DNA of 64,000 nt from Bacilli bacterium (GTDB lineage: Bacteria > Bacillota_I > Bacilli_A > RFN20 > CAG-288), in assembly GCA_900770925.1 (NCBI GenBank), contig CAAGLY010000013.1, forward strand, positions 182 through 64,181, written 5' to 3'. A model generated the notes under the pieces. It made no database searches and was not told the origin of the DNA. It saw only the letters and a program-made list of their open reading frames with translations. Made by a program: the position numbers and the translations under genes. Below, in pieces: positions 16,721 through 20,558 of this stretch; within the stretch, counting starts at the first letter, position 1; each line of letters begins with the position of its first letter.

Positions 16721-18223
16721 ATGACCGATAGGGATCAGATCAGCAATCTCATCAAGAAAGAGATTCAGAACTACGAAAGTAAAATCGAAACCGACGATGT
16801 CGGTAGCGTCATCTCCGTCGGAGATGGTATCGCAACAATCTACGGCCTTGATAAAGCAAGGTACGGAGAGCTCCTTTCCTTCCCGCATGATGTTTACGGA
16901 ATGGTCAGGAACCTGAACGAAGACAGTATCGGCTGCATTCTTTTAGGAAAAGATATCCTCATCGATGAAGGTGACAGCGTCAAACGGACAGGAAAAGTCG
17001 TCTCTGTTCCTGTCGGCGATGCTCTCTTAGGCCGTACCGTCAACGCCTTAGGAAGGCCGATTGACGGCTTAGGAGACATTAAGGCAGATGTCTATAATCC
17101 GATTGAAGCCCCGGCTCCTGGAATCAGGAAGCGGAAAAGCGTCAATGAGCCTCTCCAGACCGGTATCAAAGCCATCGATTCGATGATTCCGATTGGCAAA
17201 GGTCAGCGTGAATTGATTATCGGTGACCGTCAGACCGGTAAGACTGCTCTTGCTATCGATACCATCATCAACCAGAAAGGCAAGGATGTTATCTGCGTCT
17301 ACTGTGCAATCGGACAGAAGAACTCCACCATTGCCCAGATTGAGAGCAAACTGAAATCCTTCGATGCAAGGAAATACACGGTTATTGTCAATGCTTCAGC
17401 GAGCGAATCAGCTCCAAGGCTTTATGTCGCTCCTTATTCCGCTACCACCAGGGCTGAATACTGGAGGAATCAGGGCAAAGATGTTCTGATTGTCTACGAT
17501 GATCTCTCTAAGCATGCTGTCAGCTACCGTGCCTTATCCTTACTGCTTAAGCGTTCTCCGGGACGCGAAGCTTATCCAGGCGATATCTTCTATCTCCATT
17601 CCCGTCTGTTAGAGCGTTCCTGCAAATTAGATGAGAAATACGGAGGCGGTTCTCTTACTGCCCTTCCGATTGTCGAAACCCAGGCCGGAGATATTTCCGC
17701 CTACATCCCGACTAACGTCATTTCTATCACGGATGGCCAGATCTTCCTGACTACTGACCTGTTTAACCAGGGTCAGCGTCCGGCTGTCGATTCTGGTCTT
17801 TCTGTCTCCCGTGTCGGTTCTTCTGCCCAGTGGAAGGCAAGGAAGTCTGTTGCCTCCTCACTGAAGATTGAGCTTGCCAACTACAACGAAAGGCTAGACT
17901 TCTCCCGTTTCGGTTCGGATCTCGATAGTGTCACCCAGAATGTCTTAAAGCATGGTTCGGTCTTAAGGGAAGTCTTAAAGCAGAAGCAGTATTCGCCTCT
18001 CTCTAGGGCAGATGAGATTATCGATATCTATGTTGCCCAGTCTAAGGCGTTAGATGTTCTTCCGTTAGAGAAGATTCCTTCTGTCTTATCTCAGATCCGT
18101 CTGTCTGTCCATTCTCAGCATCCCGAAGCCATCAAGGACAGGGAAGAGACGAAGAAGCTTTCCGATGAGACAAAGAAAGTCATCAGTGAAGTCGCAAGCG
18201 ACATCCTTAGCGGAAGTCGTTAA
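16721..18223 (+). CDS. atpA: F0F1 ATP synthase subunit alpha
   Basis: 500 aa with Walker A GDRQTGKT, then [50 protein letters not shown]. Confidence 0.97.
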
Positions 18224-18242
18224 TTAATCATAAAGGAAAGTC

Positions 18243-19118
18243 ATGGCAGAATCCTTAATCAATACCAAACGGCGAATCAACACCATCTCCTCTACCGAAA
18301 AGATCACCAAAGCAAGGAAGCTTGTCGCCTCGGTAAAATACCAGCGCTGGAAGAAAAGGTACGTTTCTAACCTTGAATATGCCAAAGAGAGGGAAGAGAC
18401 AAGGTACTCAGCTTTAGCCTGCCTGACTGAAAAGGACAAGAAGCCGAAAACTAGGCTGCCCCACAATGAATCCAAGAAGAGACTCTTTATTGTCAGGACA
18501 TCGACCCTTGGATTGTGCGGCGCCTATAACTACAGTATCTTCAAAAGGCTTGATCCTGTTCTGACCGAAGAGGACGAACTTCTTCTTATCGGAACGAAGG
18601 GTATCAGCCATTATCAGAACAGATCCTATGAGAAGATTGAGGATTACCAGGACTTAAGGAACCGTTTCTCCTTCGGACAGGTCAAGCATCTCCGCCACCA
18701 GACTATCCGCCTGTACAAGACAGGAAAGTATAAGGAAATCCATCTCGTCTATACCCACTATAAGAACTCCCTGAACTTCATTCCGAAGGATGAGATTCTT
18801 CTCCCCTTCTCTCCGAACAGGGAAGAAGCCGATAACCGGAAGAAAGACTATCCGCCGATTCTTGAACCAAACAAAGAGGAGGTCCTTAATAGGACCATCG
18901 CCCACTATCTTGATTCCTTAAGGTATCAGAAACTCGTGGAAAGCGAAATCTCGGAGCTCTGCTCACGCCGCAATGCCAGGGAAACCGCAACCGACTCGGC
19001 AGAACAGATCAGAGGCGAACTCAGGATTCAGTACAACAAGAGCCGTCAGAATGCAATTACACAGGAAATCACCGAGGTGGTTGCCGGTGCAAACGCAGGA
19101 AAGAAAAAAGAAGATTAG
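18243..19118 (+). CDS. atpG: F0F1 ATP synthase subunit gamma
   Basis: 291 aa. The N-terminus (IKRRINTISSTEKITKA) and C-terminus (NKSRQNAITQEITEVVAGA) are the conserved gamma helices. Confidence 0.9.
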   Translation: MAESLINTKRRINTISSTEKITKARKLVASVKYQRWKKRYVSNLEYAKEREETRYSALACLTEKDKKPKTRLPHNESKKRLFIVRTSTLGLCGAYNYSIFKRLDPVLTEEDELLLIGTKGISHYQNRSYEKIEDYQDLRNRFSFGQVKHLRHQTIRLYKTGKYKEIHLVYTHYKNSLNFIPKDEILLPFSPNREEADNRKKDYPPILEPNKEEVLNRTIAHYLDSLRYQKLVESEISELCSRRNARETATDSAEQIRGELRIQYNKSRQNAITQEITEVVAGANAGKKKED

Positions 19119-19130
19119 GAGGAACAATCT

Positions 19131-20558
19131 ATGGAAGATATTCAGTATGGAACCTTGGTCCAGGCTATCGGACCGGTATTAGACGTCCGCTTCTCTTCAC
19201 AGACCCTTCCTCCGCTTCTCACCGCACTCAAAGTCAAAAGGAGTGACGGAAAGGAACTGACGTTAGAAGTCCTCCAGCATATCGGAGACGATACTGTCCG
19301 CTGCATCTCTAGGGGTTCGACGGAAGGTATCCAGCGCGGACTTAAGGTTGAAAACACCGGCAAGCCGATTCAGGCACCGGTCGGAAAAGAAGTCTTAGGG
19401 CGCAGGTTCAATGTCCTTGGAGAGACCATCGATGATGGCCCCTCTTTCAGTCCGAAAGAAACCCATTCCATCTATAATGACCCGCCGAAGTTCCAGGACC
19501 AGTCCACCAAAGCCGAAATCTACGAGACCGGTATCAAAGTCATCGACCTCCTCTGTCCTTATATCAAAGGCGGTAAGGTCGGTCTCTTCGGAGGTGCAGG
19601 TGTCGGAAAAACCGTTCTGATTCAGGAATTAAGGCACAATATCGCGACCGAGAAGCATGGCATCTCCATCTTCGCCGGTGTCGGAGAACGTTCCCGTGAA
19701 GGCAACGACCTCTACTACGAAAGGAAAGAGACCGGTGTTTTACAGAACACCGCCCTTGTCTTCGGACAGAGGAACGAGACTCCCGGTGTCCGTAGGCGTG
19801 TTGGTCTCTGCGGTCTGACCAGGGCAGAATATTTCCGTGATGTCCAGCATCAGGATGTCCTTCTCTTTATCGACAACATCTACCGTTTCACTCAGGCAGG
19901 AAGCGAGGTTTCTGCTCTTCTTGGACGTAGGCCTTCGGCTGTCGGCTACCAGCCGACTCTAGCGACGGAAATGGGTCAGCTCCAGGAGCGCATTGCATCC
20001 ACAAAGAACGGATCCATTACTTCCATCCAGGCAGTCTATGTCCCTGCCGATGACTTAACCGATCCTGCCCCGGCTACTACCTTCTCTCACCTTGATGCCA
20101 AAACCGTTCTTGACCGTAAGATTGCTTCTTTAGGTCTTTACCCAGCTGTCGACCCGCTTGCCTCCTCCTCTAACTTCCTTGATCCGAACGTTGTCGGACA
20201 GGAACACTATGATGTGGCATGTCGTGTCCAGGCTATCTTACAGCGTTATAAGGATTTACAGGATATCATCGCTATCTTAGGCATCGACGAATTATCTGAT
20301 GAGGATAAATTAGTTGTTAACCGGGCACGCCGTATCCGTAACTTCCTCTCCCAGCCTTTCTTCGTTGCTGCCAAGTTCAACGGATTCGATGGTAAGTTTG
20401 TCCATGTTAAGGATACCATCACTTCCTTTAAGCGGATCCTTGACGGAGAAGGCGACAATCTTCCGGAAGCTGCCTTCACCTATGTCGGCACCTTCGATGA
20501 TGCGATGGAAAAGGCAAAGAAGCTGGAAGCGGAAGCAGGCAGGAAGGCTGCAAAGTAA
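19131..20558 (+). CDS. atpD: F0F1 ATP synthase subunit beta
   Basis: 475 aa with Walker [54 protein letters not shown] and DDLTDPAP. Confidence 0.97.

What the first reader, a model, noticed from the sequence alone, without database searches (positions are those of the whole stretch)
16721..20558. atpA and atpD: AGG codons sit exactly on the conserved Met columns and outnumber ATG
The two most conserved proteins in the window give the cleanest read-out.

atpA:
- 17126: PGI-AGG-KRKSV, Bacillus-type PGVMDRKSV.
- 17369: DA-AGG-KYT, family GAMEYT.
- 17417: SAP-AGG-LY.
- 17450 and 17465: TT-AGG-AEYW-AGG-NQG, family AMGEYFM..G.

atpD:
- Seven of its ten AGG codons fall on Met or hydrophobic consensus positions (coordinates in the window-wide finding).
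- The codon at 19632 sits in the helix after the P-loop (QEL-AGG-HNIA), where families have I, L or M.
- Functionally essential arginines ([27 protein letters not shown]) all use CGT or CGC.
- With AGG read as Met, AtpD has 13 Met, which is normal for the family. With AGG read as Arg it has only 3.
Basis: partly seen in the sequence, partly recalled or inferred. Interest (0 to 1): 0.85.

Follow-up and report, generated by a model that had tools for sequence, protein, structure and literature searches.

The report
AGG codons read as methionine

Summary
atpA (16721-18223) has 14 AGG and 3 ATG codons. atpD (19131-20558) has 10 AGG and 3 ATG.

Compared with 73-80 standard-code atp operons, 15 of the 22 alignable AGG columns are Met-majority and none is Arg-majority (P about 2e-22). 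Two atpD columns are Met in 80 of 80 operons. CGN codons sit on the Arg columns.

Over all eight atp genes, Met scores +61 in log-odds and Arg scores -206. Every well-sampled other codon reads canonically. AGA stays Arg.

Across the window, AGG occurs at 235 per 10,000 codons and internal ATG at about 62. Shulgina and Eddy (eLife 2021) reported the same figures for the AGG-to-Met clade in GTDB genus UBA7642, now Candidatus Enterosoma.

A scan of 185,579 species genomes for AGG at an invariant AtpD methionine found systematic AGG use only in that paper's three species. The window nests among them: AtpD is 96-98% identical, but the DNA is only 75-81% identical, so it is a further species.

I recovered the clade's tRNA-CCU from those three genomes. 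It has G2:C71, C3:G70 and A73 and lacks A20. It was not found for the window's own genome.

Verdict: real, correctly interpreted, already known.

The parts
16721..18223 (+). atpA (F1 alpha subunit), 500 aa. It has 14 AGG, 3 ATG and 0 AGA codons. Arg is encoded by 12 CGT, 1 CGC and 2 CGG.
   Evidence: PDB F1 alpha, E about 1e-182. AGG columns are M/L/I/V in 73-76 standard-code relatives.
19131..20558 (+). atpD (F1 beta subunit), 475 aa. It has 10 AGG, 3 ATG and 0 AGA codons.
   Evidence: PDB F1 beta, E about 1e-202. Seven AGG columns are Met-majority.
19722..19724 (+). AGG codon on an invariant Met (motif DLYxEM).
   Evidence: Met encoded by ATG in 80 of 80 standard-code relatives. AGG in all four reassigned species.
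19770..19772 (+). AGG codon on an invariant Met (motif FGQMNE).
   Evidence: Met in 80 of 80 relatives. AGG in all four reassigned species.
19929..19931 (+). AGG codon on the Met of [12 protein letters not shown]. This codon was used as a probe across 185,579 species genomes.
   Evidence: six genomes matched. Only the three published AGG-to-Met species use AGG systematically.
17840..17842 (+). AGG codon in atpA on a 95% Met column (AQ-KAM-K).
16859..16861 (+). AGG codon in atpA on a 93% Met column.
18243..19118 (+). atpG (gamma subunit), between the two genes. It has 13 AGG and 1 ATG.
   Evidence: Pfam ATP-synt.
14393..20978 (+). The whole atpBEFHAGDC operon. It supplies 70 alignable AGG columns for the codon-by-codon decoding test.
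   Evidence: For AGG, log-odds are Met +61, Leu -25 and Arg -206. Every well-sampled other codon scores as its standard amino acid.
11620..12876 (-). AAA_14/DUF4143 ATPase gene, rich in AGA (12 codons). It shows that AGA is still Arg.
   Evidence: AGA lies on Arg columns (aa 24, 284, 285, 333, 334) that are invariant or nearly so in 119 homologues.

Best explanation
[quoted passage not shown] In this lineage AGG no longer means arginine. It is the dominant methionine codon at internal positions. ATG is kept for starts and for a minority of internal Met. AGA and CGN still mean arginine.

The decoding agent is a tRNA with anticodon CCU. It descends from the arginine tRNA-CCU and still sits just upstream of tRNA-Arg-CCG. 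It has methionine identity elements (A73, G2:C71, C3:G70) and has lost the arginine determinant A20, so MetRS is presumed to charge it.

Shown here:
- the codon-to-column pattern;
- the codon usage;
- the phylogenetic placement;
- the tRNA in the three sister species.

Inferred:
- that the window's own genome carries this tRNA;
- that the tRNA is charged with Met.
For: 1. AGG falls on Met columns and never on Arg columns of AtpA and AtpD.
2. In a Codetta-like tally over eight atp genes, only AGG clearly departs from the standard code (a few codons with under 10 columns are noisy). Met scores +61 and Arg -206. CGT, CGC and CGG score as Arg.
3. The same pattern holds outside the operon. Of 126 AGG positions, 37 are M, 24 L and 16 I. 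Against the three nearest standard-code relatives, 143 of 303 aligned cells are ATG.
4. AGA lies on Arg columns that are invariant or nearly so.
5. Window usage is AGG 235, AGA 91 and CGT 117 per 10,000 codons. ATG is 91 in total, about 62 without the 55 ATG starts. The paper reports AGG 209-235, AUG 59-69 and CGU as the preferred Arg codon.
6. Probing 185,579 species genomes for AGG at an invariant AtpD Met returned systematic AGG use only in UBA4682, UMGS1247 and UBA784, the three published species.
7. The window nests inside that group. It shares 54-59 AGG positions with each species, and AGG and ATG interchange within the clade.
8. An identical 77-nt tRNA-CCU with G2:C71, C3:G70, A73 and U20 lies next to tRNA-CCG in all three sister genomes.
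9. The window sequence recurs at 99.97-100% identity in at least 10 independent assemblies, so it is not an assembly artefact.
Against: - No tRNA-CCU lies in the window or in the sequence recovered beyond its ends (about 10 kb past the far end, about 1.4 kb past the start).
- The eight metagenome contigs that carry the clade's tRNA all belong to the three known species, not to the window's species.
- No protein-level evidence exists here, and none is cited in the four papers I consulted.
- A few AGG codons sit on variable or polar columns (17054, 19239). That is expected for any codon, but it leaves room for some ambiguity.
- Wobble reading of AGG by tRNA-Arg-UCU cannot be excluded.
Confidence: 0.93

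Rival explanations
1. AGG is decoded ambiguously. It is read mostly as Met by tRNA-CCU, but partly as Arg through wobble by the retained tRNA-Arg-UCU, so proteins are statistical mixtures.
For: AGA is still used as Arg in the window, at 91 per 10,000 codons, so a tRNA-UCU must exist. The paper raises this possibility.
Against: AGG is placed on invariant, buried Met positions of essential enzymes at high frequency. Substantial Arg misincorporation there would be costly. atpA and atpD avoid AGA altogether. That fits the paper's suggestion that low tRNA-UCU demand limits misreading of AGG (my inference).
Confidence: 0.1
2. AGG still means Arg. These proteins simply carry Arg where relatives have Met, through relaxed selection, pseudogenes or unusual tolerance.
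For: None beyond the default reading. Three unrelated genomes do carry a single AGG at one invariant AtpD Met.
Against: - Arg is 0% at 18 of the 22 aligned AGG columns across 73-80 relatives and at most 16% at the others.
- All eight atp genes are intact and 94-96% conserved at the protein level among four species.
- Met content would be 3 per protein, against 8-20 in relatives.
- The pattern is genome-wide.
Confidence: 0.01
3. AGG has been reassigned to another hydrophobic amino acid (Leu or Ile) rather than to Met.
For: Leu and Ile are the second and third most common residues at AGG columns, at 21% and 13%.
Against: Log-odds are Met +61, Leu -25 and Ile -67. ATG columns show the same M > L > I profile. 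Columns with 100% Met are encoded by AGG. The tRNA carries Met identity elements, not Leu or Ile ones.
Confidence: 0.02
4. The pattern is a sequencing or assembly artefact, or ATG is restored at the RNA level by editing.
For: None.
Against: The same DNA occurs at 99.97-100% identity in at least 10 assemblies from different samples and projects. Three other species share the AGG positions. From my own knowledge, no bacterial editing system is known that converts G to U at hundreds of second-codon positions.
Confidence: 0.01

Closest known systems
AGG (Arg) to Met reassignment in a clade of uncultivated Bacilli: GTDB genus UBA7642 = Candidatus Enterosoma, family CAG-288, order RFN20 (Shulgina and Eddy, eLife 2021, PMC8629427)
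   Same: - AGG is the dominant Met codon, with the same usage figures.
- AGA is retained as Arg, and CGU is the preferred Arg codon.
- GC content is about 0.42-0.46.
- The source is gut metagenomes.
- The window nests phylogenetically among the three published species and shares most AGG positions with them.
   Different: Over about 6-8 kb, the window's DNA is only 75-81% identical to the representative genomes of the three published species. It is therefore a further species of the same clade. Its own tRNA-CCU was not recovered.
Other bacterial arginine-codon reassignments: CGG to Trp in Anaerococcus and Onthovivens, CGG to Gln in Peptacetobacter, CGA/CGG to Trp in Absconditabacteria
   Same: These are also sense-to-sense changes of an arginine codon, driven by a tRNA whose anticodon differs by one nucleotide from that of the new amino acid's usual tRNA.
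   Different: In those cases the reassigned codon is rare and the genomes have low GC. Here AGG has rebounded to become more frequent than ATG, and CGG reads as Arg.
AGG reassignments in organelles: Ser, Gly or Lys in metazoan mitochondria, Ala or Met in green algal mitochondria
   Same: The AGR box is split or reassigned. AGG to Met has an organellar precedent (discussion of PMC8629427).
   Different: Those are tiny organellar genomes. This is a free-living or host-associated bacterial genome with hundreds of genes affected.

Membership tests
Enterosoma (UBA7642) AGG-to-Met genetic code | AGG codons align with conserved Met (and Met-like hydrophobic) columns, not with Arg columns | tested here: met
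   Log-odds are Met +61 and Arg -206. In atpA and atpD, 15 of 22 AGG columns are Met-majority and none is Arg-majority.
Enterosoma (UBA7642) AGG-to-Met genetic code | AGG outnumbers ATG (published: AGG 209-235 and AUG 59-69 per 10,000 codons) | tested here: met
   AGG 235 and ATG 91 per 10,000 codons over 64 ORFs. ATG is about 62 once the 55 ATG start codons are set aside.
Enterosoma (UBA7642) AGG-to-Met genetic code | AGA keeps its arginine meaning, and CGU is the preferred Arg codon | tested here: met
   AGA lies on Arg columns that are invariant or nearly so in 119 homologues. For AGA positions elsewhere, R is the commonest aligned residue, then K. CGT is the commonest Arg codon.
Enterosoma (UBA7642) AGG-to-Met genetic code | Phylogenetic position inside the reassigned clade, with standard-code Enterosoma as the nearest outgroup | tested here: met
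   The AtpD neighbour-joining tree and identities place the window with UBA4682, UMGS1247 and UBA784 at 96-98%. The Ca. Enterosoma sp. outgroups are at 89-90% and have ATG at the AGG columns. This rests on a single protein tree only.
Enterosoma (UBA7642) AGG-to-Met genetic code | The genome encodes a tRNA-CCU with Met identity elements (A73, G2:C71, C3:G70) that lacks A20, upstream of tRNA-Arg-CCG | not testable with these tools
   It is absent from the window and from the sequence recovered beyond its ends. It was found, with identical sequence, in the three sister genomes and in eight metagenome contigs of those species. The rest of the window's genome could not be reached.
Enterosoma (UBA7642) AGG-to-Met genetic code | The tRNA-CCU is aminoacylated with methionine, and Met is incorporated at AGG | not testable with these tools
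   This needs biochemistry or proteomics. No experimental report was found in the papers consulted.

The most novel reading that the evidence does not exclude
The window represents a fourth species-level lineage of the AGG-to-Met clade, one not analysed in the 2021 description. Because AtpD places it inside the clade, the reassignment predates the split of at least four species and is stably inherited. In addition, genes with different codon habits, such as the AGA- and ATG-rich AAA_14 gene at 11620-12876, could be recent imports caught while adapting to the altered code. That would give a natural test of whether a sense-codon change acts as a barrier to gene transfer.
Probability: 0.35. Interest if true: 0.35.

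Novelty: already known. Interest (0 to 1): 0.2.

Why it matters
AGG-to-Met was among the first sense-codon reassignments found in bacteria, and it is the clearest case where the reassigned codon has become the main codon for its new amino acid.

For this window, the practical consequence is annotation. Every protein translated with table 11 carries Arg where the cell puts Met, at about 2.3% of residues. That distorts homology searches, structure prediction and physicochemical inferences.

Scientifically, the window adds only a further species to a known clade. It also independently re-derives the published evidence, including the tRNA.

Tried and rejected
1. **tRNA in or near the window.** Only Ala-GGC, Ser-UGA, Val-GAC and Thr-GGU are in the window. 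Extending past both ends through identical contigs gave no tRNA-CCU. The window start abuts a 16S rRNA gene, where assemblies break.
2. **First generic tRNA-CCU pattern.** A second pattern, requiring a downstream tRNA-CCG, succeeded.
3. **The clade's tRNA in other collections.** It was absent from viral contigs. Eight metagenome contigs carry it, all from the three known species and none from the window's species.
4. **Supplement of PMC13092985.** It holds no Enterosoma tRNA sequences.
5. **AAA_14 gene as a standard-code import.** Five plasmid homologues suggested that its AGG at aa 35 sits on a basic column. With 119 closer homologues that column is variable (R/K or A/L/M/I), and the other AGG sits on M/L. 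The nearest 'R' residues may themselves be AGG from sister species translated with table 11. I dropped this as evidence.
6. **The other three hits of the AGG probe.** The Gaiellales, 'Enterobacteriaceae' MAG and Coprococcus UMGS1067 genomes each have a single isolated AGG and normal ATG usage. They are not recoded.
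Full report
**1. The observation**

The region holds atpA (16721-18223, +), atpG (18243-19118, +) and atpD (19131-20558, +), inside a complete atpBEFHAGDC operon at 14393-20978. The two large proteins match solved F1 alpha and beta subunits at E about 1e-182 and 1e-202.

Codon counts are:

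| Gene | AGG | ATG | AGA |
|---|---|---|---|
| atpA | 14 | 3 | 0 |
| atpD | 10 | 3 | 0 |

So does SRVG, while PGREAYPGD, an extra motif I checked, uses CGC.

**2. Is it more than chance?**

I fetched 80 atp loci from one-genome-per-species bacterial assemblies. All of them turned out to use the standard code. I aligned the window's proteins to them with tblastn.

In atpA and atpD, 963 columns are aligned in at least 10 relatives, and 23 of those are Met-majority. The window's 22 alignable AGG codons occupy 15 of these Met-majority columns and no Arg-majority column (hypergeometric P about 2e-22). By contrast, 30 of the 34 CGN codons lie on Arg-majority columns.

Individual columns:
- atpD 19722 and 19770 are Met in 80 of 80 relatives.
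- 19311 is 95% Met, 19794 is 91%, 19929 is 80%, 19821 is 79% and 19404 is 69%.
- atpA 17840 is 95% Met, 16859 is 93%, 17465 is 87%, 17126 is 74% and 17369 is 71%.

Arg is 0% at 18 of the 22 columns and at most 16% at the others.

The two nearest standard-code relatives are a Candidatus Enterosoma sp. MAG and a Bacilli MAG. They have ATG at 11-12 of the 14 atpA AGG positions and at 8 of the 9 alignable atpD positions. These include 17417 and 19632, which are Leu or Ile in more distant taxa.

Read with AGG as Met, AtpD has 13 Met and AtpA has 17. Relatives have 8-20. Read as Arg, each protein has only 3.

**3. Decoding test for all codons**

I pooled the eight atp genes and tallied, for every codon, the residues aligned to it. 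Every well-sampled codon other than AGG shows its standard amino acid as the top aligned residue; a few codons with under 10 columns (ATA, CAA, AGT, TGG) are noisy. AGG shows M 0.29, L 0.21, I 0.13 and V 0.08, the same profile as ATG.

Summed log-odds for the 70 AGG columns are Met +61, Leu -25 and Arg -206. CGT, CGC and CGG score as Arg.

Outside the operon, 126 further AGG positions have majority residues M (37), L (24) and I (16), with Arg rare. Against the three closest standard-code loci, 143 of 303 aligned cells are ATG.

AGA behaves as Arg. In the AAA_14/DUF4143 gene (11620-12876, -), AGA sits on Arg columns that are invariant or nearly so across 119 homologues, at aa 24, 284, 285, 333 and 334. 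So the AGR box is split: AGA means Arg and AGG means Met.

**4. Window-wide usage and reality of the sequence**

Over 64 ORFs, usage per 10,000 codons is AGG 235, ATG 91, AGA 91, CGT 117, CGC 72, CGG 72 and CGA 19. ATG falls to about 62 once the 55 ATG start codons are set aside.

The same DNA occurs at 99.97-100% identity in at least 10 independent gut metagenome assemblies. This excludes an assembly or sequencing artefact.

**5. What it is**

[quoted passage not shown] They gave AGG at 209-235 and AUG at 59-69 per 10,000 codons, CGU as the preferred Arg codon, and AGA retained as Arg. UBA7642 was later named Candidatus Enterosoma (PMC8035907). Later papers refer to 'AGG to methionine in a clade within Enterosoma' as established.

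I scanned 185,579 species genomes for AGG at the Met of AtpD '[12 protein letters not shown]'. The scan returned six loci.
- Three use AGG systematically: 64-84 AGG against 18-26 ATG in the aligned genes, with 54-59 AGG positions shared with the window. These are UBA4682, UMGS1247 and UBA784, the paper's three species.
- The other three have one isolated AGG each and normal ATG usage.

In an AtpD tree the window nests inside this group. Identity is 96-98% with AGG read as Met, against 89-90% to standard-code Enterosoma. AGG and ATG also interchange within the clade.

At the DNA level the window is only 75-81% identical to the three representatives. It is therefore another species of the same clade. 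Its exact AtpD is already present in NCBI-derived data.

**6. Mechanism**

The paper attributes decoding to a tRNA-CCU with Met identity elements, located upstream of tRNA-Arg-CCG and derived from the ancestral Arg tRNA-CCU.

No such tRNA lies in the window, in the 10 kb recovered past its far end, or in the roughly 1.4 kb recovered past its start. The window start abuts a 16S rRNA gene, where assemblies break.

A pattern search for a tRNA-CCU with G70, C71 and A73 followed by a tRNA-CCG recovered the gene in exactly the three sister genomes. ARAGORN calls it at L233 2947-3023, L235 5867-5943 and L236 1658-1734.

The 77-nt sequence is identical in all three: GGCCGGGTAGCTCAGCATGGTAGAGCAACCGTCTCCTAAGCGGTTTGTCACGAGTTCGATTCTCGTCTCGGCCACCA. 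It has G1:C72, G2:C71, C3:G70, A73, U rather than A at position 20, a 5-bp anticodon stem and an encoded CCA.

Because the window nests within the clade defined by these genomes, its genome very probably carries the same gene. That is an inference, not an observation. Charging by MetRS and Met incorporation remain untested anywhere, to my knowledge.

**7. Rivals**

- **True Arg at these positions.** This is excluded by the invariant columns, the intact and conserved genes and the genome-wide pattern.
- **Reassignment to Leu or Ile.** This is disfavoured by about 86 log-odds units and by the tRNA's identity elements.
- **Artefact or RNA editing.** This is excluded by recurrence across assemblies and across species.
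- **Partial ambiguity.** Wobble reading by tRNA-Arg-UCU cannot be excluded computationally.

**8. Verdict**

The phenomenon is already published for this clade. The only additions here are a further species-level member, an independent re-derivation of the tRNA, and firm AGA-as-Arg evidence from this window.

Interest as a new finding is therefore low. For annotation, all proteins from this window should be translated with AGG as Met.

Noticed in passing
L234 6424-6497 (+), with tRNA-CCG at 6501-6576: A standard-code bacterium (ATG 234 and AGG 31 per 10,000 codons) has a tRNA-CCU that already carries G2:C71, C3:G70 and A73. It keeps A20 and is also followed by tRNA-CCG. The acceptor-stem 'Met-like' features alone therefore do not go with reassignment. 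Loss of A20 or other changes may be the decisive step.
   Followed up: partly
window 11620-12876 (-): The AAA_14/DUF4143 ATPase gene has codon habits unlike its neighbours (AGA 12, ATG 6, AGG 2) and lies in a lower-GC stretch about 0.75 kb from the tRNA-Ser/tRNA-Val pair. It may be a relatively recent acquisition. Its two AGG codons gave no clear sign of a standard-code origin.
   Followed up: yes
L092 (Gaiellales MAG), L094 ('Enterobacteriaceae' MAG), L095 (Coprococcus UMGS1067): Each has a single AGG at the otherwise invariant Met of Atp[13 protein letters not shown], with normal ATG usage elsewhere. These are isolated Met-to-Arg substitutions or sequence errors, not recoding.
   Followed up: partly
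upstream of window position 1 (L101 10973-12075): A 16S rRNA gene begins about 0.5 kb beyond rpiB (window 271-714). Most assemblies of this species end there.
   Followed up: partly
L237-L244 (metagenome contigs); viral contigs: The Met-type tRNA-CCU occurs with identical sequence in eight metagenome contigs. All are assignable at 96-98% nucleotide identity to the three published species. It is absent from IMG/VR viral contigs, so no phage in that set carries it.
   Followed up: yes
window 58544-63442 and the adjoining sequence beyond the window end (L097 1-10000): There is a sugar-utilisation neighbourhood. It holds galK and galT, rhamnose isomerase, rhamnulose-phosphate aldolase, a FGGY kinase, an alpha-L-rhamnosidase, a GH3 glycosidase and an MFS transporter. 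A type III glutamine synthetase lies at 40261-42378. These hint at a plant-glycan-feeding gut lifestyle.
   Followed up: no
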